Shown here in pieces: positions 9,703-37,887 of a stretch of DNA of 64,000 nucleotides (positions are counted from its first letter, which is position 1; each line of letters starts with the position of its first letter). Location: IMG/VR virus record IMGVR_UViG_3300035698_007355, positions 32,732-96,731 of that record. One strand, 5' to 3'. Position numbers and translations under genes: made by a program. This DNA is from a virus. The notes below the pieces were generated by a model, which was not told where the DNA came from, ran no database searches, and worked only from the letters and a program-made list of their open reading frames with translations.

Positions 9703-11766
9703 ATGGAGAATGTTATAATTACTGGTGTGGGTCAAGATGGTTATTATTTAAGTATTAAATTACTTGAGAAAGGTTATAAAGTTATTGGTATTGACCAATG
9801 GCAACATAAAGGTTATAATGATAACTACAAAGAATTAATGGAACATAAGAATTTCAAATTAATAGAAGGAAGTATTACTGATAGATATTTAATGAAACGA
9901 ATTATAAAAGAATATCAACCTAAATATTTTTTTAATACAGCAGCTATTAGTCATGTAGCAGTATCATTTGATATTCCAGAATTAACTTTCGATACAAATA
10001 CTATAGCACCTTTAAACATATTAGAAGAATTGAGACATAATAGTCCTCATACTAGTTTTCTTCAATGTTCTACAAGTGAACAATATGGAGATTTTGAAGA
10101 AACTCCTCAATCAGAAGAAACTAAAATGATGCCTAATAGTCCTTATGCGATTGCTAAAGCAGCTACTTTCTTTATGGTTAAACTTTATAGAAAATATGGA
10201 TTAAAAACATATAATACAATATGCTTTAATCACGAATCAATACCAAAAGAATCATCTATAACATTAAAACATAATAATAGATTACAAATAATACCAATTT
10301 GTGATTTATTTTATAAGCGCGGAGATAGATTTAGAGGATTTAATAAAAAATATATTGGGTCACAAGTATGGGACGGTGATAAATGGACTAAAATAATTGA
10401 TGGTACTTGTTATCAAAAGAAAAATAAACCTATGAAACTTATTCAAACCAGAGATGCTTGTTATGAGTCTACACTTGAACATAAAACATTTTTAAATGAT
10501 AATTCAGAAATAAATACTGAAGATGTTAAAAAAGGCGATGTGGTATATGAAACATTTGACCCAATTATAAAAGAATATGAAACTATAGATAAAGATTTAG
10601 CATACGCTATTGGATTTATAGTAGGCGATGGATATGTTTCTAAATCTGGTTATATAAGATTAACTGGATGTGATAAAAAAGAAATAACAAAAATTGCGAA
10701 TATTATCAAAAATAAATTTGGATGGTCTTATAGAACTTATAATTCCGGACCAGGAAATTGGGAAAATTGTGTAAATGATGTATATCAAATCGATTTTAAT
10801 AATGATGTAAATTTTGGATTATGGTTACGAAATTCAATATATTCAAAAAATACAAATAAAAAAATTGTTCCAGAATACATATTAAATGGAAATACCGATA
10901 TTAAGTTAGGATTTTTTAAAGGGTATTATTTAGCAGATGGAAGAAAAACTGGTAATGAAACATATGAATTTAAAGGATTTACTACAAATTCTCAAGCCCT
11001 ATGTATGGGGTTAAATCACATTTGTAAATTAGTATTAAATCAAATACCAAAAACTAAATGTGTTATAAAAGGAGATAAAAGATATTATTATACACAATTA
11101 AGAAATACTAATACAAACCTAGGGAAAGGCGCTATTAAAAAACTAAATGAAGTAATATCTATAAAAAATACTAAAAATCCAGATAATTGGTTTTTTGATA
11201 TTCAAACAGAATCAAAAGCATTTGTAACTGGACCAAATACTTTTAAAGTTCATAACAGTGAAATTAGACCTGATAATTTTGTTACAAGAAAAATTACAAA
11301 GACTCTAGCTGAAATGATGGTTGGTAAAGCAGATAAACTAACTTTAGGAAATATGGATGCAAAAAGAGATTGGGGATATGCTCCAGACTTTATCGATGGT
11401 ATGATTACTATTATGGAGTCAGACGAGCCAGATGATTACGTTTTAGCTACAGGCGAGACACATACTGTTAGAGAATTTGTAGAAGCAGCTATTAAAGCAC
11501 TTGGTCTAGATATTGTTTGGGAAGGAACTGGCGTTAATGAGAAGGGCTCGATTTTAGCAAGAGACCAAAACGGAAATCCTATAATAATCAAGAAAGATGC
11601 AGTAGTTGTAAACAAAGATTTTTATAGACCAGCAGAAGTAAATGTCTTATTAGGAGACCCTACTAAGATAAAAGAAAAATTAGGTTGGGAACCAACAACT
11701 AAATTTACAGAACTAGTTGCTAAAATGGTTAAGAATGACTTATTATTATGTGAGGAACAAAAATGA
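9703..11766 (+). CDS. gmd: GDP-mannose 4,6-dehydratase, intein-containing
   Basis: ITGVGQDG, AAISHV..SF, STSE, PNSPYAIAK, FNHE|S, FVTRKIT, RDWGYA, YRPAEV. Confidence 0.92.
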   Translation: MENVIITGVGQDGYYLSIKLLEKGYKVIGIDQWQHKGYNDNYKELMEHKNFKLIEGSITDRYLMKRIIKEYQPKYFFNTAAISHVAVSFDIPELTFDTNTIAPLNILEELRHNSPHTSFLQCSTSEQYGDFEETPQSEETKMMPNSPYAIAKAATFFMVKLYRKYGLKTYNTICFNHESIPKESSITLKHNNRLQIIPICDLFYKRGDRFRGFNKKYIGSQVWDGDKWTKIIDGTCYQKKNKPMKLIQTRDACYESTLEHKTFLNDNSEINTEDVKKGDVVYETFDPIIKEYETIDKDLAYAIGFIVGDGYVSKSGYIRLTGCDKKEITKIANIIKNKFGWSYRTYNSGPGNWENCVNDVYQIDFNNDVNFGLWLRNSIYSKNTNKKIVPEYILNGNTDIKLGFFKGYYLADGRKTGNETYEFKGFTTNSQALCMGLNHICKLVLNQIPKTKCVIKGDKRYYYTQLRNTNTNLGKGAIKKLNEVISIKNTKNPDNWFFDIQTESKAFVTGPNTFKVHNSEIRPDNFVTRKITKTLAEMMVGKADKLTLGNMDAKRDWGYAPDFIDGMITIMESDEPDDYVLATGETHTVREFVEAAIKALGLDIVWEGTGVNEKGSILARDQNGNPIIIKKDAVVVNKDFYRPAEVNVLLGDPTKIKEKLGWEPTTKFTELVAKMVKNDLLLCEEQK
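10237..11256 (+). mobile_element. Intein with LAGLIDADG endonuclease in Gmd (340 aa)
   Basis: Interrupts FNHE|SEIR; starts SIPKES, ends KVHN before Ser; motifs IGFIVGDG and KGYYLADG. Confidence 0.88.
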
Positions 11767-20131: not shown

Positions 20132-20205
20132 GCCCTTGTAGCATAATTGGCTAGTGCAGTTGGTTTGTAACCAACAGGTTGTCGGTTCGACTCCGACCAA
20201 GGGCT
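20132..20205 (+). tRNA. tRNA-Thr(UGU)
   Basis: GCCCTTG/CAAGGGC acceptor; GTTGG-TTTGTAA-CCAAC anticodon arm; GTCGG-TTCGACT-CCGAC T arm. Confidence 0.9.
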
Positions 20206-20214
20206 TTTAGTATT

Positions 20215-20289
20215 GGGGCTGTAGCATAATCCGGTTAATGTGCCTGGCTGTTGACCAGAGGATTACAGGTTCAAATCCTGTCGGCTCCG
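20215..20289 (+). tRNA. tRNA-Asn(GUU)
   Basis: GGGGCTG/CGGCTCC acceptor; CTGG-CTGTTGA-CCAG; ACAGG-TTCAAAT-CCTGT. Confidence 0.85.
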
Positions 20290-20296
20290 CTTTTAT

Positions 20297-20368
20297 GCGT
20301 CATTGGTGTTAACGGTAGCATCTCTGGCTTCCAACCAGATGGAGTGAGTTCAAATCTTGCATGGCGCA
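20297..20368 (+). tRNA. tRNA-Gly(UCC)
   Basis: GCGTCAT/ATGGCGC acceptor; TCTGG-CTTCCAA-CCAGA; GTGAG-TTCAAAT-CTTGC. Confidence 0.85.
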
Positions 20369-20371
20369 TAT

Positions 20372-26770: not shown

Positions 26771-26971
26771 ATGAAATTATTGACCAAGAAAATTATAGAA
26801 CAATTACCAATAACTTCACTTATAAGGTATATTTCATTAATCCAAAATTATATGTATGAGGTATTTCCTACTATGTGTGATATGGATAAACAAAAAGAAT
26901 GGACACGATTAATGAAACATAGAGCATTTGTGGCTACAGCATTGGTTAAACAAACAGAGGTAGAAAAATGA
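26771..26971 (+). CDS. Hypothetical protein
   Basis: GGAGGT RBS; first gene of the small-ORF array. Confidence 0.55.
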   Translation: MKLLTKKIIEQLPITSLIRYISLIQNYMYEVFPTMCDMDKQKEWTRLMKHRAFVATALVKQTEVEK

Positions 26972-27183
26972 GCAAATTCAAGGTTGGTGATAGAGTAGAA
27001 AGGACTTTAAATCCAGTCAACGAAAATATACAAGTAGGCGATATATCAGAAATAACAGAAATACACGATAACAAAATATCTTTAAAAGATTTTACCCCCC
27101 TTCAGGACTGTTGTTATGTTAGAGATAATTTTGAACTGGTTAAATACACAACTTGGAAGGAACGATACGAGACCAAAGAATGA
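26968..27183 (+). CDS. SH3/KOW-like small protein with C-terminal WKERY motif
   Basis: KFKVGDRV ... TWKERYE. Confidence 0.7.
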   Translation: MSKFKVGDRVERTLNPVNENIQVGDISEITEIHDNKISLKDFTPLQDCCYVRDNFELVKYTTWKERYETKE

Positions 27184-27383
27184 CATTCAAAAAAGGAGAT
27201 AAGGTAGAAGTTATCGGAGAATATAATGGTTATAATGCAGGCACTATCTTAACTGTTGAAAATACTATCCAAAATGTTTGTTGGTTCGAAGAACCTAACA
27301 CAAAAGGTTCTACAGATTGGGGAATTCGTAACAGTAATTTAAAATTACCATTTAAAACCTGGAGAAAGAGGTATAATAAATGA
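27180..27383 (+). CDS. SH3/KOW-like small protein with C-terminal WRKRY motif
   Basis: FKKGDKV ... TWRKRYN; ATGA-coupled start at 27180. Confidence 0.7.
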   Translation: MTFKKGDKVEVIGEYNGYNAGTILTVENTIQNVCWFEEPNTKGSTDWGIRNSNLKLPFKTWRKRYNK

Positions 27384-27619
27384 AATTTAAAGTAGGAGAT
27401 AAGGTATTAATCATTTCTAATGCAGACGATGGAATATGGAACCAATATATAGGTACTATACACATTATAACAGCCGTTATAAATAACACCATTTCAGACC
27501 GTAAATATTATTTACCAATAAATCCATATTCAGAAGAAGAAGAAAGTGTATGGTCAGAAAAAGAACTGAAATTGGTAAAAAATCTTACTTGGAAAGAACG
27601 ATATGAGGCGACTATATAA
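27380..27619 (+). CDS. SH3/KOW-like small protein with C-terminal WKERY motif
   Basis: KFKVGDKV ... TWKERYE. Confidence 0.7.
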   Translation: MKFKVGDKVLIISNADDGIWNQYIGTIHIITAVINNTISDRKYYLPINPYSEEEESVWSEKELKLVKNLTWKERYEATI

Positions 27620-27876
27620 TGGAACAAAAAAACATTAAGATAGGTAAGGCTTACAAGATTGTTGGAAACAATGGTGGATGTTCTAGAACTAACCGTTGTA
27701 AAGATTGTATTCCTTTTATAAAAGGTATAGTTGTTACAAGCCTTTTGGATGAGGATGACGAACCTAATAGAACAGTTTCAGGAGATTCTTTAAATGGTTT
27801 AAGGCATTGTGGTTTTGACCCAAGAGATTTAATTCTGATACCAACTAATTGGAGGGAGAGATATGCTAACAAATGA
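27619..27876 (+). CDS. Small Cys-containing protein with C-terminal WRERY motif
   Basis: IKIGKAYKIVG ... NWRERYA. Confidence 0.65.
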   Translation: MEQKNIKIGKAYKIVGNNGGCSRTNRCKDCIPFIKGIVVTSLLDEDDEPNRTVSGDSLNGLRHCGFDPRDLILIPTNWRERYANK

Positions 27877-28252
27877 GGATAAATTACACAATATAATGAT
27901 GGGTAGTTTGAAATCCTTTGGAAAAGAATATTGGAGGAAAAAATGAAAAAAGAAAAAGAATGGATTGTGAAAAATGAGCTTGAGGAAAGCGATGATATAG
28001 CAAGTGTGGAGATAATAAAATGAACCTAAAATTTTTACTACCAAATAATCCTTCCGATTGGATATGTATTGGTTTTGTAATAGGAGTAATATTTTTCCTA
28101 TTTATGACTATGCTAACAATAGGTATGATGGAGATATTATAATGAAATGTTTCAAATGCTCGGCTACATTAACGCCTAATCAACAGGACGAATACAATAC
28201 CACAATATACACTTGTAATTGTGGCGCTATAAATTCAGTGAGGTAAATAAAA

Positions 28253-28513
28253 ATGGGACTATTTGATGATTATTTAAAAAAGGAAAAATCTTTACAATAT
28301 CATAAATACCAATTAAAATTATGGTTGGAAGAATGGTATGAATTTGTTGATGGTAATGGTGATAGTGGTTATACACTACTTAAACATATATCTTCCAAGT
28401 TAAATAAAATTGAGAAACAGGTTGATATTCATATCAAAGCGGTCAATCGTTTGGACAACAAATCTTTTCAGACCTTTGAAGACGGATATGTTCCTAGTGG
28501 AACTTTAATGTGA
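28253..28513 (+). CDS. Hypothetical protein
   Basis: GAGGT RBS, 86 aa. Confidence 0.55.
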   Translation: MGLFDDYLKKEKSLQYHKYQLKLWLEEWYEFVDGNGDSGYTLLKHISSKLNKIEKQVDIHIKAVNRLDNKSFQTFEDGYVPSGTLM

Positions 28514-28612
28514 AAATATGATGATACCAATACTATCCTACATTAGAAGAAACTTTTGGGGTATAGTTTTTGTAATATTTATGATAGGAATATCGATAAT
28601 AGGAGGATTACA

Positions 28613-28885
28613 ATGAAATTAAATAAAGGATGTTATAAAATAGATACAATTGACCAATCTACCAATGCAAAAATACAGGCGTCGCTACTTGAAAAAGGTT
28701 GTAGTTGGGGTAGGTCAGAAAATACGATACAATATACAGAAAAAAGGTATTTATTTTTAGATGATGGATGCTTTACATATGCCGAACATAAAGATTATTT
28801 TGATAACCATACTTATAAGGAAGTAAGTGTTAAAATTATTCTAGGTAAATTCAGTTGGAAAGAAAACTATGAGGCTAAAAAATGA
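28613..28885 (+). CDS. Small protein with C-terminal WKENY motif
   Basis: AGGAGG RBS; IQASLLEKGCSW ... SWKENYE. Confidence 0.65.
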   Translation: MKLNKGCYKIDTIDQSTNAKIQASLLEKGCSWGRSENTIQYTEKRYLFLDDGCFTYAEHKDYFDNHTYKEVSVKIILGKFSWKENYEAKK

Positions 28886-28942
28886 ATTTAGCGGATGAAT
28901 TACTAACGGAAGAGGAATTGTCCCGTATAGTAGAGGAAGACA

Positions 28943-29194
28943 ATGAAATTTAAAAAAGGACAAAAAGTTCTAATCAGAAAAGACCTGGAAGCAAGTAAAC
29001 AATATGATAATTGTACGGTTACAATTGCAATGAAACAATATAAAGGACAAATTGCTATAATAACAAGAACTAAAAAATATGGGATATTTGAAAGGTATGA
29101 ATTAAATATTGATGGAGGACGATGGTCCTGGGCAAGTGAAATGTTAATACCAACAAATATAAGTTGGAGAGAAAGATATAAGATTATGCCATAA
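28943..29194 (+). CDS. SH3/KOW-like small protein with C-terminal WRERY motif
   Basis: KFKKGQKVLIRKDL ... SWRERYK. Confidence 0.7.
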   Translation: MKFKKGQKVLIRKDLEASKQYDNCTVTIAMKQYKGQIAIITRTKKYGIFERYELNIDGGRWSWASEMLIPTNISWRERYKIMP

Positions 29195-29261
29195 AGCGAA
29201 CCACAACGCCAAAACGGTAGCCCTGGCGACAGGGCTGCCATTATAATTATGAGGTAAACAA

Positions 29262-29462
29262 ATGATTTGGAAAGTAGGAGATAGCGTAATATCTAATTTA
29301 GGAATAGATAAAGAAAAACATTTAACCATTACAGAAATATCATACCGTGAAGGTAATCCAACATTATGGTTCAGTGATGGTGGATGTACTAGAGTAGAAG
29401 AAATTATGGAAGGAGATTTAAGACATTCATCGTGGAAAGAACGATATGGAGGTAAAAAATGA
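29262..29462 (+). CDS. SH3/KOW-like small protein with C-terminal WKERY motif
   Basis: WKVGDSV ... SWKERYG. Confidence 0.7.
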   Translation: MIWKVGDSVISNLGIDKEKHLTITEISYREGNPTLWFSDGGCTRVEEIMEGDLRHSSWKERYGGKK

Positions 29463-29601
29463 AAAAATTAAGGACACATAATACAACTTGTTTACCACCA
29501 CATTTAAGAACAAAAAAGAAACCAATCAGTATTGCGGTAAGTAGAACTAAATCCAATAAAGATAAATTAGCATTTATGAAGAAATTTGGCGAGGTAATAA
29601 G

Positions 29602-30138
29602 ATGAGACAAACCACAATAACGGCGGCTCAACTCAAGAAGTTCGTAGGTAGAAAAAATACCTTTGCTATACAAACAAATAAAGGCTCCTATGTACCAGTA
29701 AGACGAGATATAACAACCAAAGACTTACAGGACCATTTAAAAGGTGATAAAACATTAGGCTCATATGTAATTCAAGAAGATGGACTAATTTCGTTTGCCT
29801 GTATAGATATTGATACAGAACCAGGAAATGATTTAGAACCTTACAAAAGATTAGCCTATATAGTGTATGACCTATTTGTGGACTTTCAAGCAGTCCTTGA
29901 ATTCTCAGGTAGAAGAGGATACCACATATGGTTATTTCCAGAAAAACCAGAACATCCAAGATTCCTTAGGGAATTAATAAAATCACGATTAAAAACATAC
30001 GGTATTAGAAACATAGAAATATATCCTAAACAAGATACCATCAATGAATTAGAGAAAAAGTTAGGCAACTTAATTAAATTACCTTGTGGAAAGCACAAAA
30101 AAGGTGGATGGTCCGAAATTATGAGGTGGAGAAAGTGA
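29602..30138 (+). CDS. Archaeo-eukaryotic primase catalytic domain (stand-alone)
   Basis: CIDID (motif I), FSGRRGYHIW (motif II), GNLIKLP (motif III). Confidence 0.8.
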   Translation: MRQTTITAAQLKKFVGRKNTFAIQTNKGSYVPVRRDITTKDLQDHLKGDKTLGSYVIQEDGLISFACIDIDTEPGNDLEPYKRLAYIVYDLFVDFQAVLEFSGRRGYHIWLFPEKPEHPRFLRELIKSRLKTYGIRNIEIYPKQDTINELEKKLGNLIKLPCGKHKKGGWSEIMRWRK

Positions 30139-30353
30139 ACCCCAAAGACTTTAAGATTGGACAAACAGTTAAACGTACCGGGGATGAATATAACGGTATG
30201 GTAATAGGAGATATTGATGTTATAACGGATGTTGGTAATAATATCGAATTAAAGAAATTTGGACCAGGACATTCAAAACGTAGCCTTAGTGTAATAAATT
30301 TCAGTTGGAAAGGTAGATATGAGGTAAAAAATGAAATTCAAAGTTGGGGATAA
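30135..30353 (+). CDS. SH3/KOW-like small protein with WKGRY motif
   Basis: GTG start; FKIGQTV ... SWKGRYE. Confidence 0.65.
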   Translation: MNPKDFKIGQTVKRTGDEYNGMVIGDIDVITDVGNNIELKKFGPGHSKRSLSVINFSWKGRYEVKNEIQSWG

Positions 30354-30552
30354 AGTAAAAGTGATAGATGGAGATTTCCATAAAAATAATTCTCCAGAAC
30401 TAAAGACTGGATATATAGGTATAATTACCGAAATTAAGGAAATATCAGCTATTTTTCCTGGAAATCATTGGATAGATATAGACGGATACGGTGGTATTAT
30501 AGAAAGCCAATTAATGCTAGTATATACAAGTTGGAGGGATAGATATGAGTAA
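30331..30552 (+). CDS. SH3/KOW-like small protein with C-terminal WRDRY motif
   Basis: KFKVGDKV ... SWRDRYE. Confidence 0.7.
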   Translation: MKFKVGDKVKVIDGDFHKNNSPELKTGYIGIITEIKEISAIFPGNHWIDIDGYGGIIESQLMLVYTSWRDRYE

Positions 30553-30784
30553 GTTCAAAAAAGGAGACAAAGTAAGGTTCAAATCACCTGATAGCCGTAA
30601 CGCTACCTATTTTTCATCAGGATTAAGAAACCTAGAAATAGTAGAAAGTCTTGGTATTAGTGAATATAGTGTTAGGGAAGCAGATAATTCCATATCTTGG
30701 TGTGTAGAGGAATATGAATTGGAGTTAGAAACCCCTAAATTTAAAAGTTGGAGGAAAAGATATGACCACTTACAGACACAGTAA
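30545..30784 (+). CDS. SH3/KOW-like small protein with C-terminal WRKRY motif
   Basis: KFKKGDKV ... SWRKRYD. Confidence 0.7.
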   Translation: MSKFKKGDKVRFKSPDSRNATYFSSGLRNLEIVESLGISEYSVREADNSISWCVEEYELELETPKFKSWRKRYDHLQTQ

Positions 30785-31103
30785 AGAACTAAAGGGTAAC
30801 ACTTTAGAACTAGGTGATACTTTAAAATTTACAAAAGGTGCAAATAAAGGGTCCTTTAAAGTTACAGCAACCTTTTTAGATAATACAATATCCATTGGTA
30901 ATAATCACGTACCTTTAGATATGATTGGTCTAACATCAGAAAGAGAAAGAAGGGACTTTTGCACTAAAAATTATGGGTATAGTGCTGGTAAAGGAAGTTG
31001 GCCTATTTATAGTAATAATGATATGGACGCAATTACTAGAACGGTAATAGTTATATTTTTAATATTGGAAAAAGGATTTAGTTGGAGGTATAGATATGAA
31101 TAA
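30762..31103 (+). CDS. Small protein with C-terminal WRYRY motif
   Basis: LELGDTLKF ... SWRYRYE. Confidence 0.65.
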   Translation: MTTYRHSKELKGNTLELGDTLKFTKGANKGSFKVTATFLDNTISIGNNHVPLDMIGLTSERERRDFCTKNYGYSAGKGSWPIYSNNDMDAITRTVIVIFLILEKGFSWRYRYE

Positions 31104-31725
31104 ATTTAAAGGCTTTGGCGAGAAAGATACAAAAATGGCGTTATCTAAGGTAAAAAAGTCTAAAAAGAAAATTCAGGATAATGTGGCTAAAAAAGAAATT
31201 AACAATACCTTAGCTGAAATGGGATTAAAGAGTAAACAAGCAATCATTTTAGACGGTTCTGCTATGAAAACAACCAAAGCATTTATAAAGGCTGGATGGT
31301 CTCCTACACAAATTCACAATGTTAATAATTCCTCAGATTATAATACTATTAAAAGGCATCACAAAAAATCATATAATATGACCTTATATGAATTTCTGGA
31401 CTTACATAAAGATAGGAAAGGAGAGATAGGTTGTATTTATATGGATTATATGAGTTCTTGGGACGGAAATGTTAATTTCAAACCTAAAGATGATTTACTC
31501 CTACTATTTTGTGAAGAAATGTTAGCTAAAGGTTCAATACTTGGTATAACTTTTTCAGCAAGAACCAAAAAGAAAGACAATACATTTATATATCCAGATA
31601 TTGGAAAGGTATTAGATTACATTTACCAATTAGCAAGAGATACAGGATATGAATTATCATTGGTTACAGGAGGCGCCTACAGTAACGGCGGACCAATGTT
31701 CTCATACATATTTAAGGTAAACTAA
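31096..31725 (+). CDS. Hypothetical protein, possibly a divergent Rossmann methyltransferase fold
   Basis: AIILDG, CIYMDY, LAKGSILGITF. Confidence 0.35.
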   Translation: MNKFKGFGEKDTKMALSKVKKSKKKIQDNVAKKEINNTLAEMGLKSKQAIILDGSAMKTTKAFIKAGWSPTQIHNVNNSSDYNTIKRHHKKSYNMTLYEFLDLHKDRKGEIGCIYMDYMSSWDGNVNFKPKDDLLLLFCEEMLAKGSILGITFSARTKKKDNTFIYPDIGKVLDYIYQLARDTGYELSLVTGGAYSNGGPMFSYIFKVN

Positions 31726-31726
31726 G

Positions 31727-31945
31727 ATGTGGAAAGAACACTATACCAACAAAACCAAAGTAGGGGATAAAGTTAAAATGATAAATAGGTTAAATGCCTT
31801 ACTGATTTGCGGGGACTTTGTTTCTTCAGGGTCATTATTTGTTGGTAAGGTATATACAATAACCAAAATCACTAAGAAAGGATATTTAATGTTTGGAGAC
31901 TCCTGTTCTTATAACCCTAAATGCTTTATAAAGGTGTCAAAATGA
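31727..31945 (+). CDS. SH3/KOW-like small protein with N-terminal WKEHY motif
   Basis: MWKEHY-TNKTKVGDKV. Confidence 0.65.
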   Translation: MWKEHYTNKTKVGDKVKMINRLNALLICGDFVSSGSLFVGKVYTITKITKKGYLMFGDSCSYNPKCFIKVSK

Positions 31946-32250
31946 ATTGGAAAGAACGATATAATACGGATGGATTCATTCCATTAGAACAAGATAAAGT
32001 AGTCCCTGGTATGGTAGCTAAACTAATTGTTGGTAACGAGACATCTTGGAGAAGAAATTGTTGGATAAATGATATGAAAGGAAAAGTATTCGAGGTTTAT
32101 GATAATAATAATGAAGGAAAAATATCTATAAAATTACCTATTAGTTTGTGGAAATATAATGATATTGGTTGTGAAGAGGAGGAACAAATAGCACAGGAAA
32201 GAGGCTGGTATGAAGTCTTAGGACCTGCTAATTGGTTCTTATTTAAATAA
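31942..32250 (+). CDS. Small protein with N-terminal WKERY motif
   Basis: ATGA-coupled start MNWKERYN at 31942. Confidence 0.65.
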   Translation: MNWKERYNTDGFIPLEQDKVVPGMVAKLIVGNETSWRRNCWINDMKGKVFEVYDNNNEGKISIKLPISLWKYNDIGCEEEEQIAQERGWYEVLGPANWFLFK

Positions 32251-32251
32251 A

Positions 32252-32599
32252 ATGGCATACATAAAAAAAGATGATGGAACTTTTGAAGTAAAAGGAACAA
32301 AGAACAACTGGATAGTGTCCGAAAGGATTACTTCTTGTAATTGTCCAAAATTCAAGTTTATCCTAAAGGGACAAGGTGAATGTCACCATATGTTAGAAGT
32401 CAAATTGGGCGAGGCAAAAGTATCCCAGGCTATTGAACAGGCTACTGGGGTAGACAAATATCCAACATTCGAAAGGTCTAAATATCTTGAACCAATAATG
32501 TTACATAAGTTTATTGAGGTATTTGGAGAAAGTCAATACCGTGTCCTATCAACCACATCCATTATATTCACACATAGAGGATTAGTCCGATTAATATAG
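32252..32599 (+). CDS. SWIM zinc-finger protein
   Basis: CNCPKF...CHH. Confidence 0.7.
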   Translation: MAYIKKDDGTFEVKGTKNNWIVSERITSCNCPKFKFILKGQGECHHMLEVKLGEAKVSQAIEQATGVDKYPTFERSKYLEPIMLHKFIEVFGESQYRVLSTTSIIFTHRGLVRLI

Positions 32600-32635
32600 T
32601 GTTACTACTCAATAGTTAAACGAAACATTTATAAA
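32600..32635 (+). promoter_or_regulatory. TGTTACTACT box plus BRE-TATA promoter of the Ubl operon
   Basis: TGTTACTACT at 32600, CGAAACATTTATAAA at 32621. Confidence 0.7.
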
Positions 32636-32747
32636 GAGCAATTACTTAATGCTATTAAGGAAGAAAGAAAAATAAAAATGGAAAACAATCATATTCTTGG
32701 AACCAATTCTTGTGTTCCGTTAGTAAAAAACTGCGAGGTGGTATATA

Positions 32748-33134
32748 ATGCCAACAAAAACAAAAGCACAAATATGTAGGAAAATGTACGGATGTTCACT
32801 TAGTGAATTATCTGGCGGAGAGAAAGCAGCCGTAACAAAAGCTTTTAACAAACAGGACAATGACGTAGCAACTCCTAGAGTTGTAGCAAAACCAACATCA
32901 GGAGCTGGATATGCGACTGTTAAGTTTGGAAGACCAGGAGTTAATGGTGTAAAAGAATGTATCGTAGAGGTAAATTCTACTATGGGACAAGCTTTAGACC
33001 AAGCTGGGGTAAACATCAACAAAACCAAAGAAGGAGTATTGAACAAATCTGATGGTGCTGTTGTTATGTATAATAACCCAGTAGTTGATGGTGCAGTTTA
33101 TATGATTGTTCCAGGTGTTGATAGTTCTTTATAA
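32748..33134 (+). CDS. Ubiquitin-like (beta-grasp) protein with N-terminal extension
   Basis: ATVKFG..GVKECIVEVNSTMGQALDQAGV...NPVVDGAVYMIVPGVDSSL fits the ThiS/MoaD/SAMP pattern; first gene before E2, JAB and E1. Confidence 0.7.
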   Translation: MPTKTKAQICRKMYGCSLSELSGGEKAAVTKAFNKQDNDVATPRVVAKPTSGAGYATVKFGRPGVNGVKECIVEVNSTMGQALDQAGVNINKTKEGVLNKSDGAVVMYNNPVVDGAVYMIVPGVDSSL

Positions 33135-33149
33135 CTTCCACCATAATAA

Positions 33150-33170
33150 TTTTTTTATTTTTTTATTTTA
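33150..33170 (+). terminator. Oligo-T terminator after Ubl
   Basis: Three T-runs separated by single A bases immediately after the stop. Confidence 0.55.
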
Positions 33171-33210
33171 ATTACATCCTATTCACATTAAACCAGTAAG
33201 GAGGAAAAAT

Positions 33211-34851
33211 ATGTCAATTAAAAGAATTAAAAAAGATGAAGGTAAACCTGTTAAGAAAACAGCTAAACCTAAAATAAAAGTAAAACTAAAATCTATAAAG
33301 GTAAAAAATAAAGAAGTGTCCTTAATAGACTTATTAGTTCCACAATTAGGAAAAACTAAAACTCATAAGTGGAGCAACAAAGGTGGAAAAGATATTTTAG
33401 AAGGTATGTTAGAAGGTAAAGGGTTAATAAAAATAAACTTTCCAAAAGACTTTGACGGAGATTTCGTAATAGAAGTGGATGACAAAGCAGAACCAATCTT
33501 TAAAAAATTACAAGATATAAATAATATGGATATTACTGATAAGGATGTCAGAGACTCCATATTTAAAATGACAAGTTCAAAAATAAAAAATGGTGCTCTT
33601 TCTAAATTAGGTAAAAACAAAATTGTTTTTGACGAAATAACTAAATGGTTTAAAGACCTTGGCTTTACAAAAGTTGGAATCAAAGACTCATTAGGATATG
33701 AGTTAGAAAAAAAAGCTTTTAAGGAACTAACACTTTGTATAAAACCCGAAATGAATAACTCACAACATACCGATATGCATAGTAACCTTTTCACCAAATA
33801 TAAAAAACTTAAAGGGTTTATAGAACCTAGATATGTTGGAAGTAATATTAAACCACTACCAACTGAAAAGATAAAAGATATTAAGAGTGGGATAAATATC
33901 ATAGGTAAATATTACATTGATAGAAACCTTGTCATATTATTTTTTTCACCATTTGAAAAAGTTGATTTAGAAAAAGTTATGTCATATAAGGAAATAGAAT
34001 ACATTACCACACTAACGGCAGACCTTGAGCAAACCTTTAAATCGCTTAAAATGGAAGTAGTTGATAATGAAAAATTCCTAATGTTAATGACAGTTAAGAA
34101 TTTTAATAGGGAAGGCGAAGAAAGGTTAAAGAAATTAAAAACCGATTTAGTTAAGAAAAGGAATGACCAACATTCTTATGAATCCAAATTATTAAGTTTA
34201 TACCAAGCGACTGAAAATATGGGAGCAGATATTAAGGCATTAGAAAGTGTTAATTCTGGAAATGTAGATGATTTTCTAGCCCAAATAGCAAAACTTAAAA
34301 AAGTTCCTATCATTACAGATGTTAAATTAAATGATGGAACAATAAGTATAACCTTTAAAGAAACAACAATAAAAAGTAAATTCGGTAGAAATGTTGAAGG
34401 TAATAACGAAGGTCCTATAAGAGAAATGTTTATTGGTGCTATTACAGCCCATCTACACGGTGGAACATCAATAACTGTATCTTGTAATTATCCTACTCTT
34501 GAAAATAGTAAGGCGCATCCACACGCTAATAGTGATGGTAGTCCTTGTTTAGGAAGTGGAGATGGTCCAAATATGATGTTTAAGTTAATTGGACAAAATA
34601 ACTTCGCAGATTTTGCCTATGTATTTTGGATGTGGATTAAACGATGGAGACCAAGTGATTGTTATATAAGTCCCGCCGTTTATTATGACGACCGATTAAA
34701 ACAAGGGCTACCTGTCTTTGACCAAGTGGGAAACAGAATCAATATTAATGATGAGGGTAAAATTAAAGACGGAGAACAATTGAAATTAACAACATCCAGT
34801 GAATATGATGTAAACATAAAAAAATACAAGGGCTTTAAATCAGTCCAGTAA
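33211..34851 (+). CDS. Coiled-coil protein with C-terminal E2-like (Ub-conjugating) domain
   Basis: HPHANSDGSPCLG matches the E2 HPN-x7-C active-site spacing; central coiled coil. Confidence 0.7.
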   Translation: MSIKRIKKDEGKPVKKTAKPKIKVKLKSIKVKNKEVSLIDLLVPQLGKTKTHKWSNKGGKDILEGMLEGKGLIKINFPKDFDGDFVIEVDDKAEPIFKKLQDINNMDITDKDVRDSIFKMTSSKIKNGALSKLGKNKIVFDEITKWFKDLGFTKVGIKDSLGYELEKKAFKELTLCIKPEMNNSQHTDMHSNLFTKYKKLKGFIEPRYVGSNIKPLPTEKIKDIKSGINIIGKYYIDRNLVILFFSPFEKVDLEKVMSYKEIEYITTLTADLEQTFKSLKMEVVDNEKFLMLMTVKNFNREGEERLKKLKTDLVKKRNDQHSYESKLLSLYQATENMGADIKALESVNSGNVDDFLAQIAKLKKVPIITDVKLNDGTISITFKETTIKSKFGRNVEGNNEGPIREMFIGAITAHLHGGTSITVSCNYPTLENSKAHPHANSDGSPCLGSGDGPNMMFKLIGQNNFADFAYVFWMWIKRWRPSDCYISPAVYYDDRLKQGLPVFDQVGNRININDEGKIKDGEQLKLTTSSEYDVNIKKYKGFKSVQ

Positions 34852-34860
34852 GGAGGAAAA

Positions 34861-35892
34861 ATGACGAAATATAAGGCGGTAATAAGATTTTTAGAAGAAC
34901 CAATGAGGATTATTAAATGGTTTACAAAGAATTTCGATAAAGAAATTGGTGCTTTAGGCATCGGTGAACTTAAAGACGGGATTATGGTAATCGAAAGATT
35001 AGTATTTCCACAACAAATAGTTAATGGAGTCCACGTTCATTTCAAACCAGAAGACTGGGGACCTATTGTCCGAGATTTATCAATAGAAGATTTTGGTAAA
35101 ATAATCTTTTACTGGCACAAACATCCAGGAAGTGCAGGAGCAAGTCAAGGAGATGAAGATGATACCTTTGATGTATTTATGCCTGAAGAAAATTGTGCAA
35201 GACCATTCTTTGGTTTTATGCAAACGGCTATAAAACATAATGGTGACTTTGAATATGAGGCACGAATTGAAATGAGAGACCCTATTTGGACTACCATAGA
35301 GGATGTAGAGATTATGTCCGATGACGATTATAGTGTCGAGGAAACTTGTAAAAAAATAATCGAGGACCATATTACTCTTGGTAATGCATCAACTTCTGAC
35401 CAACCAGGAACTAAAAAAACAACCACAGTAAAAAGTAAAGTATGGAACAAAGCTAAACAGAAATTCGAAATGGATATACCTGCGGAAAACTATGATTACG
35501 ATTTACCAACATTTGAAGTTGATAAAAAGAACGGTAATATAAAACTAACCGTTAGTGATTATTTTGAAGATTGGGTATTAGATGTCCTTAGCGATGAGGC
35601 TGTTGAAATATGGGTTAAAAAATTCAAAAAAATAATTGGAGATACAAAAATAACATTTGAAATACAACCTAACAAAAAATGTATCAACAACCTTTATGAC
35701 CATTTTTCATGTATAGAAAAAGAAATGGCATTATGTAATGAAGAAGACCCTATTACAGAAGATGTTTTAGAGGACACTTTAAATAAGGATAGTGTATATT
35801 CTGAGGAAAAAGATATTAAAAAATTCAATGAAAGACATGGCAATCCAATAAGAGATAGATTTGCCCCTTATGGAAATAATTATTTATATTAG
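34861..35892 (+). CDS. JAB/MPN+ metallo-isopeptidase
   Basis: KEIGALG (catalytic Glu), WHKHPG....SQGD (HxH-x7-S-x2-D). Confidence 0.8.
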   Translation: MTKYKAVIRFLEEPMRIIKWFTKNFDKEIGALGIGELKDGIMVIERLVFPQQIVNGVHVHFKPEDWGPIVRDLSIEDFGKIIFYWHKHPGSAGASQGDEDDTFDVFMPEENCARPFFGFMQTAIKHNGDFEYEARIEMRDPIWTTIEDVEIMSDDDYSVEETCKKIIEDHITLGNASTSDQPGTKKTTTVKSKVWNKAKQKFEMDIPAENYDYDLPTFEVDKKNGNIKLTVSDYFEDWVLDVLSDEAVEIWVKKFKKIIGDTKITFEIQPNKKCINNLYDHFSCIEKEMALCNEEDPITEDVLEDTLNKDSVYSEEKDIKKFNERHGNPIRDRFAPYGNNYLY

Positions 35893-35902
35893 GAGGGATA
35901 AA

Positions 35903-36613
35903 ATGAGCGGAATAACAAATGCAAAACAGGCAAACATAATAGACTCCAGTAAAATTTCCAAATGGAAAGTTAAAGTATTTGGAATTGGGTCAATAGGTAG
36001 TAATCTTATTAAACAATTAGCTTTAACAGGCTTTACAGATATTGTTGGATATGATTATGATACCGTAGATAGTGATAATATTGGTTCACAAGAATTTGAT
36101 ATTAGACACATTGGAATGAAGAAAACAGCGGCAATACAAAAGCTTATGAAGGAAAGCTATAACTATGATGTAGCCGTAGTTGATGGAAAGTTAGACGAGA
36201 AATCCGAAATCTATCCAGAAGAAAACACAATCTATTTCTGTGGCTTTGATAGTTTAAAGGCACGAAAATTATTATGGGATAAGTTAAAGAATTTTCCTGT
36301 TATTTGGGGAGAGAGTAGAATAGGCAGAACAGCTCAAAGGTTTTATTTTGTTGACCTAAAGAATAGAAACGAAGAATGGATAAAACAATATGAAGAAAGC
36401 CTAGACCCAAGTGGACCAATGACTACACTAAAATGTGGCGAGAAAGGGACTTTTTCATCTAATACAGAATTAGTCGGTAAAATAATGCGACAAATGGTTA
36501 ATATTGCAGAGGGTAAATCAATAGCAACAATGTATGTCGGCGACTGGGGTTATCCGCCATCTATTTTTATAGCACCTAAAGATGAATTCCCTTCAGAGAT
36601 AAAGTATGAATGA
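35903..36613 (+). CDS. E1/ThiF-family Ubl-activating enzyme
   Basis: VFGIGSIGS, YDYDTVDSDNIGSQ, GFDSLKAR, candidate catalytic Cys in TLKCGEKG. Confidence 0.85.
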   Translation: MSGITNAKQANIIDSSKISKWKVKVFGIGSIGSNLIKQLALTGFTDIVGYDYDTVDSDNIGSQEFDIRHIGMKKTAAIQKLMKESYNYDVAVVDGKLDEKSEIYPEENTIYFCGFDSLKARKLLWDKLKNFPVIWGESRIGRTAQRFYFVDLKNRNEEWIKQYEESLDPSGPMTTLKCGEKGTFSSNTELVGKIMRQMVNIAEGKSIATMYVGDWGYPPSIFIAPKDEFPSEIKYE

Positions 36614-36927
36614 GGAGGAAAAGAATGGAATTCAAAGATACCCTAGATATTGATTGTTATGGAAAAAGTATAAAACAAAAAAAAATACTTTGGAACATAT
36701 TCAAAAAATGGGGATATAGACACGTTTGTATAGAAGATGGAATGTTTGTAAAGGGAGATTATTGGTATGATGCTAGATATTTCCTAGTTTGTAACGATAA
36801 ATGCGTTCATCCTAGAGGCGAAAAAGAACCATTACCTGATGAAAATAATAATTTCACCTATGATAGTTTTATGTCAACCCACTGTTCAAATAGTTGGCGT
36901 GAAAGATATACAGGAAAATCAAATTGA
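36610..36927 (+). CDS. Small protein with C-terminal WRERY motif
   Basis: Overlaps the E1 stop; ... SWRERYT. Confidence 0.65.
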   Translation: MRRKRMEFKDTLDIDCYGKSIKQKKILWNIFKKWGYRHVCIEDGMFVKGDYWYDARYFLVCNDKCVHPRGEKEPLPDENNNFTYDSFMSTHCSNSWRERYTGKSN

Positions 36928-36952
36928 TACCACATCAACGGCAGATGATACT

Positions 36953-37198
36953 ATGATACCTAAAGTAGGAGACAGAATCATATACAGAGGTACAAAAGAA
37001 GGCAAAACTGATTATGTCTGGAAACATTATTTCGAGAAATATGGAGTTAAAAAAGGCGATATAGGGATAATAGACTCTATCAGTGGTATATATTTTTATA
37101 CCATAGATGCTAAAAGACCAAATTCAATAGGGTTTTTAATTGCTGATGACCTAATATTTGCTAAAAGTTGGAAAGAACATTACGAAGGTGTAAAATGA
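36953..37198 (+). CDS. SH3/KOW-like small protein with C-terminal WKEHY motif
   Basis: PKVGDRI ... SWKEHYE. Confidence 0.65.
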   Translation: MIPKVGDRIIYRGTKEGKTDYVWKHYFEKYGVKKGDIGIIDSISGIYFYTIDAKRPNSIGFLIADDLIFAKSWKEHYEGVK

Positions 37199-37527
37199 AA
37201 CTCACATTAAAAAAACATACCGATAATAAATATGATTGGAATATTCACTATGGTAATTGAATTATATACATATGTTGAAACGGTAAGTCCATCTACTATG
37301 GTTCATTTTTTATCGGCAGCTACAACTATGTATCCAGATAGTTACTATACGGATGATAATATAATAAGATTTCATAATACAGGAAAAGGATATATTAAAA
37401 TATCCAATGAAGAAGTGGCAGCTAAAATTGTTGGTATAGGTCTATTTCGATTACTAGAAAAAATACCAGAATTTTATAGTATGCTTAGAGGAACAACAAT
37501 AGCTAATGATTTAAAGGACGATTAACA

Positions 37528-37887
37528 ATGGTATATTTATGTAGAGATTGCGGACACGATGAAAGTTTTGATGCCATACAAAACGTTACGGAATATTGTA
37601 CGGAATCTGTTACATTAAATGGTGATGGAGAAGTTATAGATTGGGGAGATAGAGATACCAACGATAGCGAAGTTACTGATGGTCCTGATAATATAGAATG
37701 TGGAGAATGTAATTCTAGTAATGTTGAAGAATACGATACCCAAGAAGAAATGGAAATTGCACAAGAGGAAGACAGAATAGAAAGAGAGGATATAGAAACA
37801 GGAACAATATCCCCTACCGCTACTATATCTAATTCTGATGGTGTAGTTAATTGGAAAGAAACATATTTACGAAGGAGGAAAGAATAA
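37528..37887 (+). CDS. Acidic Zn-ribbon protein with C-terminal WKETY motif
   Basis: CRDC...CGEC; NWKETYL. Confidence 0.65.
   Translation: MVYLCRDCGHDESFDAIQNVTEYCTESVTLNGDGEVIDWGDRDTNDSEVTDGPDNIECGECNSSNVEEYDTQEEMEIAQEEDRIEREDIETGTISPTATISNSDGVVNWKETYLRRRKE

What the first reader, a model, noticed from the sequence alone, without database searches (positions are those of the whole stretch)
32748..33134. Ubl ends in VPGVDSS-L instead of Gly-Gly and has an N-terminal extension
Seen: the positions equivalent to the ThiS/MoaD/SAMP terminal GG are Ser-Ser followed by one Leu, and a ~50-aa extra N-terminal segment is present. Established: E1 enzymes normally adenylate a C-terminal Gly. Inference: JAB may remove Leu to expose Ser (non-canonical chemistry) or cut after VPG; the N-terminal segment could oligomerise or recruit partners.
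Basis: partly seen in the sequence, partly recalled or inferred. Interest (0 to 1): 0.7.

Follow-up and report, generated by a model that had tools for sequence, protein, structure and literature searches.

The report
Viral ubiquitin-like protein ending in serine
A tailed virus carries a full ubiquitin-like tagging kit whose tag protein, like about 100 relatives, has an invariant serine where every characterised system has glycine, so the kit probably starts its chemistry from a non-glycine end.

Summary
ORF 32748-33134 (+) encodes a 128-aa protein ending VPGVDSS-L.

- **Fold.** Residues 55-121 are modelled as a beta-grasp (pLDDT 86). The best structural hits are ubiquitin, SUMO, SAMP1 and TtuB. 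The family profile hits SAMP2/PF1061 at E 3e-4.
- **Register.** Profile and structural alignments put S126-S127 on the Gly-Gly positions.
- **Family.** None of 98 homologues ends in GG. Ser126 is invariant and uses both the TCN and AGY codon families. The next residue is S/A/N/Q/G, followed by 0-4 hypervariable residues. 34 relatives stop exactly at the GG-equivalent position.
- **Context.** In all 17 distinct loci long enough to show it, the gene precedes a ~520-aa protein with an E2-like C-terminal domain (HPH..C), a JAMM-motif peptidase and a minimal ThiF-type E1 with a conserved loop cysteine. A controlled complex model puts the tail in the E1 adenylation site (0.84; best control 0.01).
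- **Reading.** The peptidase trims Leu128, or possibly Ser127-Leu128. A C-terminal Ser is then adenylated and conjugated. Cutting after VPG is rejected.
- **N-terminal part.** The ~53-aa extension is a portable two-helix module plus linker. Its role is untested.

This is a new variant of Bil-like systems. Earlier unchecked notes of this scan report serine-ended tags on other DNA (CPR bacteria, Bub-like operons). The archaeal host is not verified.

The parts
32748..33134 (+). Ubl gene, 128 aa plus TAA stop
32748..32858 (+). N-terminal two-helix module (residues 1-37; family motif TKAQIARKMYG..LS.L..GEKAAVT.AFN.Q)
   Evidence: Helices 6-14 and 23-36 at pLDDT 87-94. Conserved in 82 of 98 family members. 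Occurs as 3-4 tandem repeats in P0099, P0102 and P0103.
32859..32909 (+). Variable linker (residues 38-54)
   Evidence: pLDDT about 50. Length and composition vary across the family.
32910..33110 (+). Beta-grasp core (residues 55-121)
   Evidence: Strand-strand-helix-strand-strand order in the AF2 model. Foldseek top hits are all Ubl domains. VIA Z 8.7 to SAMP1 and 7.8 to ubiquitin. Profile hits PF1061/SAMP2 at E 3e-4 and 1e-3.
33111..33128 (+). C-terminal tail P122-G-V-D-S126-S127. S126 is invariant in the family; S127 is at the position of the terminal Gly.
   Evidence: In the complex model, residues 121-127 touch the E1 P-loop and Asp130 region.
33129..33131 (+). Leu128, the presumed pro-tail residue removed before activation
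   Evidence: This position holds 17 different residue types across the family, and the tail is 0-4 residues long. Removal is inferred.
33211..34851 (+). 546-aa protein with an E2-like C-terminal domain. Invariant H436, H438 and C446 (HPHANSDGSPC; Cys codon 34546-34548).
   Evidence: Alignment A4. Model pLDDT 90. Structural hits are mostly UBC E2s with some RWD-type domains, but weak: VIA Z<=4.8, Foldseek E>=0.17. No Pfam or PADLOC hit.
34861..35892 (+). 343-aa JAMM/JAB-motif peptidase (E28; H86-x-H88-x6-S95-x2-D98 at 35116-35154) with an uncharacterised C-terminal half
   Evidence: These five residues are invariant in 12 orthologues. Prok-JAB PF14464 is hit below threshold by 7 of 12 members, best E 2.6e-4; the window copy scores 0.23. 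No PDB sequence hit.
35903..36613 (+). Minimal ThiF-type E1, 236 aa from the ATG at 35903. The listed ORF starts at TTG 35861, and residue numbers here count from 35861. P-loop G41/G43/G46, D130, R135; conserved Cys192 in C-G-x-K (codon 36434-36436).
   Evidence: Pfam ThiF 1.7e-13. Alignment A3 invariants. Homologues are 236 aa long. PDB profile hits UBA3 2e-13, MccB 4.5e-12, PaaA 4.9e-12.

Best explanation
The 128-aa protein is the modifier of a virus-encoded, Bil-like four-gene conjugation cassette (Ubl, E2-like protein, JAMM peptidase, minimal E1). It is a diverged ThiS/MoaD/SAMP2-type beta-grasp protein. Its canonical Gly-Gly end is replaced by an invariant Ser followed by a small or amide residue (Ser here; Ala, Asn, Gln or rarely Gly in relatives). 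The proposed steps are all inferred. (1) The precursor carries a short throw-away tail (Leu128), which the cassette's JAMM peptidase removes. (2) The tail P122-S127 threads into the adenylation site of the homodimeric E1, which adenylates the carboxylate of C-terminal Ser127. (3) The acyl group passes to Cys192 in the E1 loop over the tail, then to Cys446 of the E2-like domain, and finally to an amine on unknown targets. (4) The JAMM enzyme may also reverse the conjugates. The non-Gly end most likely makes the viral pathway orthogonal to Gly-specific cellular E1s and isopeptidases. The N-terminal two-helix module on a flexible linker is cargo or an adaptor that each conjugate would display. 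Its partner is unknown.
For: Shown by tools: beta-grasp fold and Ubl-only top hits, and sequence-profile kinship to SAMP2/PF1061 and MoaD with the same P-x-V-x-x-x end register. 98/98 homologues have Ser at the penultimate-Gly position, S/A/N/Q/G at the terminal-Gly position, and then 0-4 hypervariable residues. 34 end exactly at the canonical terminus. The Ser is kept across both codon families. The order Ubl > E2-like > JAMM > E1 holds in all 17 distinct loci long enough to show it. E1 has an invariant P-loop, Mg-Asp, Arg135 and Cys192. The JAMM residues are invariant, with sub-threshold Prok-JAB hits in 7/12 members. The E2-like domain has invariant H-x-H...C, and its fold hits are mostly E2s. 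A controlled complex model of E1 dimer + ATP + Mg + Ubl(50-127) scored ipSAE 0.84 against a best control of 0.01. That mark was reached by 58 of 80 solved complexes and 2 of 110 mismatched pairs. The runs agreed on at least 92% of contacts, and partner pLDDT was at least 88. Ubl 121-127 touches E1 41, 43-46, 128-132, 135 and 152-158, which is the adenylation site. E1 residue 128 is G/A in the four SS-ended cassettes and F/Y in the nine SA/SN-ended ones. Precedents from papers: E. aridi BilC (JAB) removes a single Ala after Gly97 of BilA, in an operon with the same gene order (PMC10557695). Cap2 conjugates cGAS ending in Gly or Ala (PMC10097602).
Against: No biochemical data exist for any member. 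In the one system tested (Cap2), Gly-to-Ser at the C-terminus abolished thioester formation and conjugation, so activating a Ser end needs an adapted E1 pocket that has not been shown. The complex pass may reflect likeness to solved MoeB-MoaD-type complexes, and it cannot say which residue is adenylated. The E2 assignment is weak: Z<=4.8, no family hit, and His where E2s have the HPN Asn. The JAMM assignment rests on a motif plus sub-threshold Pfam hits. E1 lacks the canonical Arg of the NLxRQ motif (it reads NIGSQ). All 45 SS-ended members keep at least one extra residue, which this register does not explain. An invariant penultimate residue with a variable terminal residue is the reverse of what is usual for Ubls.
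Confidence: 0.55

Rival explanations
1. Same pathway, different register. The invariant Ser126 is itself the reactive C-terminus. The peptidase cuts between S126 and S127, so every precursor carries a 1-5 residue tail that begins with a small residue (S/A/N/Q/G, a P1' preference).
For: Ser126 is the only invariant residue, as the reactive Gly is in other Ubls. No family member ends at Ser126, so a cap is universal. In E. aridi Bil the invariant Gly97 is followed by one Ala, which BilC removes, and tails reach 9 residues. That mirrors the ...K-S|A ends here. The distant tandem poly-Ubl relatives P0100 and P0101 have Gly at this position (K-G-N).
Against: The tail would be one residue shorter than in SAMP2, MoaD and ubiquitin by both profile and structural register. 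34 members end exactly at the canonical terminal position, the usual mix of capped and uncapped forms. The Asn after Gly is conserved in all six units of P0100 and P0101, which is odd for a throw-away residue.
Confidence: 0.22
2. The protein is activated but not conjugated to proteins. It would be a carrier or precursor, as in ThiS/MoaD sulfur transfer or MccB/PaaA-type C-terminal tailoring, and the large 'E2-like' protein would be something else.
For: The E1 is a minimal ThiF/MoeB-type enzyme. Its profile scores MccB and PaaA, the E1-like enzymes known to act on Asn and Glu termini, as high as true E1s. Some family members end in Asn or Gln. The E2 fold evidence is weak. JAB peptidases also serve sulfur-carrier pathways (Iyer et al. 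2006).
Against: A Cys is invariant in the HxH...C motif of the large protein, and its fold hits are mostly E2s. The gene order is that of Bil. No sulfurtransferase, rhodanese or biosynthetic partner is in the conserved neighbourhood. A conserved N-terminal module on a linker makes little sense for a sulfur carrier.
Confidence: 0.12
3. The Ubl is a non-conjugatable decoy or purely non-covalent adaptor. Loss of Gly-Gly disabled conjugation, and the tail motif only mediates binding, for instance to block a host Ubl defence such as Bil.
For: Gly-to-Ser kills conjugation in Cap2. Bacterial Bil systems target phage proteins, so phages have a motive for a decoy.
Against: The virus keeps its own E1, E2-like and JAMM genes with all catalytic residues invariant across lineages only 25-40% identical. 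The tail is the most conserved part and is modelled inside the cognate E1 active site. Variable caps behind a fixed motif are the signature of a processed precursor.
Confidence: 0.08

Closest known systems
Type II BilABCD (bacterial ISG15-like) operons, e.g. Ensifer aridi (PMC10557695)
   Same: Gene order Ubl-E2-JAB-E1. The Ubl precursor has a short tail removed by the JAB (G97|A98). The Ubls often carry extra N-terminal domains. The E1 gives a weak BilD hit (PADLOC 1.5e-7).
   Different: BilA has an invariant C-terminal Gly; here there is an invariant Ser and no Gly-Gly. BilD is a ~450-aa E1 with inactive plus active adenylation domains and a CYS domain; here the E1 is a 236-aa single-domain type. 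Ubl, E2-like and JAB give no PADLOC hit. Bil sits in bacterial defence islands. This cassette sits in the replication module of tailed viruses and was found only once in 185,579 prokaryote genomes, on a virus-like contig.
SAMP2/PF1061, SAMP1, MoaD-MoeB and ThiS-ThiF
   Same: Best sequence-profile and structural relatives of the Ubl. The P-x-V-x-x-x tail register is the same, and the E1 is a minimal homodimer-type enzyme.
   Different: Those end in Gly-Gly, have no E2-like partner, and act in sulfur transfer and/or sampylation. They have no N-terminal module.
Type II CBASS Cap2/Cap3 acting on cGAS-like enzymes (PMC10097602)
   Same: E1-E2 chemistry plus a JAB peptidase acting on a non-Gly-Gly terminus. 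Ala is naturally accepted at the C-terminus.
   Different: The substrate is not a beta-grasp protein. E1 and E2 are fused. Ser at the terminus abolished conjugation there.
MccB (microcin C7) and PaaA (pantocin A)
   Same: ThiF-family enzymes that adenylate non-Gly C-termini (Asn, Glu; this rests on established knowledge). They are among the best PDB hits of the E1 profile (4.5e-12 and 4.9e-12).
   Different: They tailor short peptides and have no E2, JAB or beta-grasp substrate. The matches cover only the Rossmann part.
Bub operons (PMC11601596)
   Same: A diverged bacterial Ubl pathway with non-canonical chemistry, in which a JAB peptidase exposes the Ubl end.
   Different: Bub keeps the C-terminal Gly and replaces the catalytic Cys residues with Tyr and Ser. 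Here both Cys residues are kept and the Gly is replaced.
Lambda/T1 tail assembly protein I (TAPI) with TAPK JAB-NlpC/P60 (Iyer et al. 2006)
   Same: A phage-encoded beta-grasp protein next to a JAB peptidase.
   Different: TAPI has a conserved Gly, a C-terminal extra domain and no E1 or E2, and it lies in the tail module. This cassette lies between primase, methyltransferase-like and nuclease genes.

Membership tests
ThiS/MoaD/SAMP-type beta-grasp Ubl | Beta-grasp fold | tested here: met
   AF2 model pLDDT 86. Foldseek top 50 are mostly Ubl-type beta-grasp domains. VIA Z 8.7 SAMP1, 8.5 Mth1743, 7.9 MoaD, 7.8 TtuB.
ThiS/MoaD/SAMP-type beta-grasp Ubl | Detectable sequence kinship | tested here: inconclusive
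   The family profile hits PF1061 at 3.4e-4 and SAMP2 at 1.3e-3 in PDB. Pfam ThiS is matched only by 3 of 63 members, below threshold.
ThiS/MoaD/SAMP-type beta-grasp Ubl | C-terminal Gly-Gly (or at least a terminal Gly) | tested here: not met
   0 of 98 end in or contain GG at the tail. Ser is invariant, followed by S/A/N/Q/G.
ThiS/MoaD/SAMP-type beta-grasp Ubl | Cognate ThiF-family E1 that takes the tail into its adenylation site | tested here: met
   E1 is adjacent in all complete loci. The complex model scored 0.84 against 0.01 for the best control, with the tail on the P-loop and Asp130. This is a model only.
Type II BilABCD | Operon order Ubl-E2-JAB-E1 | tested here: met
   compared with PMC10557695
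Type II BilABCD | Highly conserved reactive Gly followed by 0-9 tail residues | tested here: not met
   A tail is present, but the conserved residue is Ser.
Type II BilABCD | E1 with tandem inactive/active adenylation domains and a CYS domain (~450 aa) | tested here: not met
   The E1 is 227-310 aa with one adenylation domain and a Cys in a short loop.
Type II BilABCD | Sequence match of Ubl, E2 and DUB to Bil models | tested here: not met
   PADLOC: no hit at E<=1 for Ubl, E2-like or JAB. Only E1 hits BilD, at 1.5e-7.
UBC/E2 superfamily (for the 546-aa neighbour) | UBC fold with a catalytic Cys ~10 residues after an HPN-like motif | tested here: inconclusive
   An H-P-H-x7-C motif is invariant. 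Fold hits are mostly E2s with some RWD-type domains, but at Z<=4.8 and E>=0.17. No PDB profile hit.
JAB/JAMM metallopeptidase (for the 343-aa neighbour) | E...HxH-x6/7-S-x2-D zinc motif and JAB fold | tested here: inconclusive
   The motif is invariant in 12 orthologues. Prok-JAB is hit below threshold in 7/12.
Bub operons | Cys-less E1 (Tyr) and E2 (Ser); BubE serine protease | tested here: not met
   Cys192 and Cys446 are invariant. No BubE-like gene is in the cassette.
PRTRC cassette (ParB-related, ThiF-related) | PRTRC ThiF, proteins A/B/C/E and ParB | tested here: not met
   Only a below-cutoff PRTRC_ThiF hit (33 bits against a cutoff of 144.75). The other three proteins give no hit.

The most novel reading that the evidence does not exclude
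This virus family runs an orthogonal ubiquitin-like code. Its E1 has evolved to activate a C-terminal Ser (Ala, Asn or Gln in sister lineages) instead of Gly. The viral modifier therefore cannot be charged by cellular E1s or stripped by Gly-specific isopeptidases, and the virus uses it early in infection to tag host or viral proteins with a two-helix adaptor module. A more remote version is that the beta-hydroxyl of the activated C-terminal Ser takes part in the chemistry, for example through an ester or lactone intermediate.
Probability: 0.3. Interest if true: 0.85.

Novelty: new variant of a known kind. Interest (0 to 1): 0.66.

Why it matters
Every ubiquitin-like conjugation pathway characterised so far activates a C-terminal glycine. 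This covers the eukaryotic pathways, archaeal SAMP, and bacterial Bil and Bub. CBASS also tolerates Ala. Here a whole virus-borne family of about 100 sequence clusters, with its own E1, E2-like protein and peptidase, has an invariant Ser and never Gly-Gly. If it conjugates, glycine is not a chemical requirement of E1-E2 cascades. It would also provide a naturally orthogonal tag, E1 and protease set for protein engineering. It would further show that viruses of prokaryotes carry ubiquitin-like systems of their own, not only their hosts' defences. The question can be tested directly with four small genes in E. coli.

Tried and rejected
- **Family libraries for the Ubl.** Pfam, PHROGs, PADLOC and NCBIfam gave nothing usable. 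The one PHROG 'tail protein' hit (E 0.016) was judged noise.
- **Cultured phages.** tblastn of the Ubl against 50,697 records gave no match.
- Context came from the search for related loci instead.
- **Broad alignment A2.** It was too diverse for locus scans, so A1 was used.
- **Prokaryote genome scans.** The Ubl scan found none. The E2-like domain scan found one contig, binned as a Planctomycetia MAG, that is plainly the same virus type.
- **'Cut after VPG'.** Rejected because G123 is not conserved.
- **E2-like domain.** No PDB sequence hit and only weak fold hits.
- **JAB N-domain.** The profile found no PDB hit.
- **Protein Atlas.** Nothing for the N-terminal 40 residues and only sub-0.9 leads for the whole protein.
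- **Papers.** Searches for the KAWxTRR-like motif, for virus-encoded Ubl cassettes and for serine-ended Ubls found nothing relevant.
- **Promoter and terminator scan.** Around the gene it was not above shuffled controls.
- **Host.** The sister note's 'archaeal virus' is not supported by what I could test. The nearest cultured relatives are Bacteroides phages for the terminase (26% identity) and T4-like phages for PolB (28% identity). The host stays unknown.
- **E1/Ubl co-variation.** The E1 position 128 pattern is confounded by phylogeny and is only suggestive.

Full report
**1. Observation**

The ORF at 32748-33134 (+) exists as described. It has an ATG start behind a GAGGTGG ribosome-binding-like site, encodes 128 aa, and ends ...YMIVPGVDSSL followed by TAA. 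It is a real, conserved gene. A word-indexed search found 29 homologues at 43-100% identity. An exhaustive profile search of 1.84 billion cluster representatives found 79 relatives, 68 of them at E<1e-10.

**2. What the protein is**

An AlphaFold2 model built on the 29-sequence alignment (mean pLDDT 86) shows three parts.

- Two N-terminal helices (residues 6-14 and 23-36) at high confidence.
- A low-confidence linker (37-54).
- A strand-strand-helix-strand-strand domain (55-121) followed by a free tail (122-128).

Foldseek's best PDB matches are almost all ubiquitin-like beta-grasp domains. They include ubiquilin, ubiquitin, SUMO, NEDD8, ISG15, TtuB and Caldiarchaeum ubiquitin. E-values are about 1e-3, probability 1.0, and TM-score reaches 0.71 on the target. 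Re-alignment with VIA gives Z 8.7 to H. volcanii SAMP1, 8.5 to Mth1743, 7.9 to MoaD and 7.8 to TtuB and ubiquitin.

A profile of 63 diverse family members also hits P. furiosus PF1061 (E 3.4e-4) and SAMP2 (1.3e-3), and weakly MoaD, at the sequence level. Single members give sub-threshold hits only to beta-grasp Pfam families. The protein is therefore a diverged ThiS/MoaD/SAMP2-type Ubl that carries an extra N-terminal part.

**3. The C-terminus**

Two independent registers place S126-S127 on the Gly-Gly positions.

- *Structural alignment.* Model residue 127 aligns with ubiquitin G76 (7lyc_K). Model residue 125 aligns with residue 85 of 87 in SAMP1, 63 of 65 in TtuB, and 74 of ubiquitin in several entries.
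- *Profile alignment.* The conserved P-x-[VI] aligns with P-V-V or P-P-V of PF1061, SAMP2 and MoaD. Exactly three residues are left in those chains.

Across 98 full-length relatives the pattern is as follows.

| Position (window numbering) | Residues observed |
|---|---|
| 122 | P in 78 |
| 123 | G 62, E 22, others 14 |
| 124 | V or I in 95 |
| 125 | D 55, K 26, others 17 |
| 126 | S in 98 of 98 |
| 127 | S 45, A 36, N 11, Q 4, G 2 |
| after 127 | 0 residues in 34, 1 in 49, 2 in 13, 3-4 in 2 |

- The residues after position 127 cover 17 amino-acid types.
- None of the 98 has Gly-Gly.
- In a 63-sequence alignment with 32% mean column identity, S126 is the only invariant column.
- In 36 loci the Ser codon is TCN 25 times and AGY 11 times. 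Selection is therefore on the amino acid, not on the DNA.
- The next gene starts 76 nt downstream, so no overlapping signal explains the conservation.

A fixed motif followed by a short tail of free length and identity is the signature of a precursor that is trimmed. The 34 relatives that stop exactly at the canonical terminal position (mostly ...P-E-I-K-S-A) show where the mature end is expected.

**4. Context**

In the window the Ubl is followed, on the same strand, by three genes.

- A 546-aa protein.
- A 343-aa protein with a JAMM motif.
- A ThiF-family E1 (Pfam 1.7e-13).

The same order is found in all 17 distinct loci with enough downstream sequence. This holds even where the proteins are only 25-40% identical. 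In L044 small genes are interleaved, but the order is kept.

*E1.* It is a minimal 236-aa enzyme. Its likely start is the ATG at 35903, by comparison with homologues. Invariant features are the P-loop G41/G43/G46, D65, D67, K88, the Mg-Asp D130, R135, and a Cys192-Gly-x-Lys motif in the loop that crosses the Ubl tail. The canonical Arg of the NLxRQ motif is replaced: the window reads NIGSQ.

*JAMM protein.* E28, H86, H88, S95 and D98 are invariant. Seven of 12 orthologues give sub-threshold Prok-JAB hits.

*The 546-aa protein.* Its C-terminal 180 residues fold confidently (pLDDT 90). They carry invariant H436, H438 and C446 in HPHANSDGSPC, spaced like the HPN...C of E2 enzymes. Structural hits are mostly UBC E2s, with some RWD-type domains, but they are weak (Z<=4.8; Foldseek E>=0.17). 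I call it E2-like, not E2.

*Complex prediction.* The job held an E1 dimer, ATP, Mg and Ubl residues 50-127.

- It scored ipSAE 0.84, against a best control of 0.01.
- That mark was reached by 58 of 80 solved complexes and 2 of 110 mismatched pairs.
- The three runs share at least 92% of contacts, and partner pLDDT is at least 88.
- Ubl residues 121-127 touch E1 41, 43-46, 128-132, 135 and 152-158, which is the nucleotide loop and the Mg-Asp region.
- Similar complexes are solved, so the pass shows likeness to MoeB-MoaD-type docking. It does not prove binding or identify the adenylated residue.

*Co-variation.* E1 residue 128 is G/A in the four SS-ended cassettes and F/Y in the nine SA/SN-ended ones. 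This is suggestive but confounded by phylogeny.

**5. Mechanism proposed**

All steps are inferred.

1. The JAMM peptidase removes Leu128.
2. E1 adenylates the carboxylate of Ser127.
3. The acyl group moves to Cys192, then to Cys446 of the E2-like domain, and then to targets.

A second register cannot be excluded. In it, the invariant Ser126 is the reactive end and Ser127-Leu128 is the tail.

- *For the second register.* The reactive residue is normally the invariant one. No member ends at Ser126. E. aridi BilA ends Gly97-Ala98, and its JAB cuts between them. The tandem poly-Ubl relatives P0100 and P0101 have Gly at this position.
- *Against it.* The canonical tail length is matched only by the first register, and 34 members end exactly there.

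Either way, the mature window protein would end in serine. 'Cut after VPG' is rejected because G123 is not conserved.

**6. N-terminal extension**

Residues 1-37 form a conserved two-helix module, present in 82 of 98 members by length criterion. It is joined to the beta-grasp by a linker of variable length and composition.

- Some relatives lack the module altogether (75-84-aa proteins such as P0071, P0086 and P0092).
- Others have a basic KAW.TRR-like segment instead (P0067, P0073, P0087; L044).
- The module also occurs as 3-4 tandem repeats at the C-terminus of acidic proteins, two of them with PKD domains (P0099, P0102, P0103).
- It appears weakly (E 7.5e-4) on the methyltransferase-like protein next to the cassette in L001.

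It is thus a portable unit. Extra N-terminal domains are common on Bil and Bub Ubls. Whether it oligomerises or recruits a partner was not tested.

**7. Comparison with known systems**

- *Type II Bil.* This is the closest in logic. It shares the gene order, JAB trimming of a tiny tail, and N-terminal add-ons. Membership fails on the reactive Gly, the E1 architecture and sequence matches.
- *SAMP2/MoaD.* These are the closest relatives of the Ubl itself, but they end in Gly-Gly.
- *CBASS Cap2.* It accepts Gly or Ala. Gly-to-Ser abolished its reaction, so an adapted pocket is required here.
- *MccB and PaaA.* These ThiF-family enzymes act on Asn and Glu termini, which is established knowledge. 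They are among the best PDB hits of the E1 profile. This shows that the fold can handle non-Gly ends.
- *Bub.* It changes the catalytic residues but keeps Gly.

**8. Where the cassette occurs**

The window is part of a 96.7-kb IMG/VR virus record. The virus has a portal, a terminase, an intein-bearing PolB, a class II RNR and an AEP primase. The cassette sits in the replication module. In the window it lies between the primase and methyltransferase-like genes upstream and a Cas4-like nuclease downstream, and L001, L002 and L040 show a similar arrangement.

The Ubl was not found in 185,579 prokaryote genomes. The E2-like domain was found once, on a virus-like contig binned as Planctomycetia. 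The nearest cultured relatives of the terminase and PolB are bacterial phages at 26-28% identity. The 'archaeal virus' label in the sister note is unverified, and the host is unknown.

**9. Novelty**

I found no paper in the searchable library that describes a virus-encoded Ubl-E2-JAB-E1 cassette or a serine-ended Ubl. Earlier notes of this scan are unchecked by me. They report serine-ended tags on other DNA: Gly-Ser-ended tags in peptidase-less CPR cassettes, and a Bub-like branch ending in Ser. If these hold, non-Gly ends are a wider phenomenon. They would also give precedent for register A, since the CPR cassettes have no trimming protease.

I rate this a new variant of a known kind. Interest is fairly high because it challenges the glycine rule and can be tested with four genes.

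**10. Limits**

There is no biochemistry. The E2 and JAB assignments are only partly supported.

Noticed in passing
window 26968-37887; L040:298-13394; L044:1672-12450: Many small genes around the cassette end in a lineage-specific C-terminal tag: SW[KR]ERY in the window, NWK..[LI] in L040 and L002, LMDL..K in L044. In L044 they are interleaved between the E2-like, JAB and E1 genes. Whether these tags relate to the Ubl system, for example as recognition or acceptor sites, is open.
   Followed up: partly
P0100 and P0101: Distant relatives are tandem triple beta-grasp 'poly-Ubl' proteins. Each unit ends K-[IVT]-K-G-N, with Gly at the position of the invariant Ser.
   Followed up: partly
P0099, P0102, P0103: The Ubl's N-terminal two-helix motif (TRDEIA..YG..F..LS.E....VE..Y..Q) occurs as 3-4 tandem repeats at the C-terminus of acidic proteins, two of them with PKD domains. 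It is an unnamed repeat with no Pfam model.
   Followed up: partly
L001:6900-7778: The methyltransferase-like protein just upstream of the cassette in this related virus carries a weak copy (E 7.5e-4) of the same N-terminal module.
   Followed up: no
window 35861-35903: The E1 ORF as listed starts at TTG 35861 and overlaps the JAB gene. Homologues are 236 aa, so the ATG at 35903 is the likely start.
   Followed up: yes
window 36077-36091 (E1 residues 73-77): The E1 family lacks the canonical Arg of the NLxRQ nucleotide-binding motif. The window reads NIGSQ, and relatives read NIAAQ or NIGPQ.
   Followed up: partly
window 32252-32599: The 115-aa protein directly upstream of the Ubl has a SWIM-like C-x-C...C-x-H zinc motif. 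A similar protein lies two genes upstream of the Ubl in L044 (3505-3822).
   Followed up: no
window 9703-11766 and 56417-59917: Two intein-type insertions (LAGLIDADG / Hint): one in a GDP-mannose 4,6-dehydratase and one in the family-B DNA polymerase.
   Followed up: no
L040 (CAYVYZ010000002.1, 65 kb): A contig binned into a Planctomycetia MAG has the same cassette and the same neighbouring genes as the viral records. It is either a mis-binned virus or a host hint.
   Followed up: partly
window 20132-20369: A cluster of three tRNA genes (Thr-TGT, Asn-GTT, Gly-TCC).
   Followed up: no
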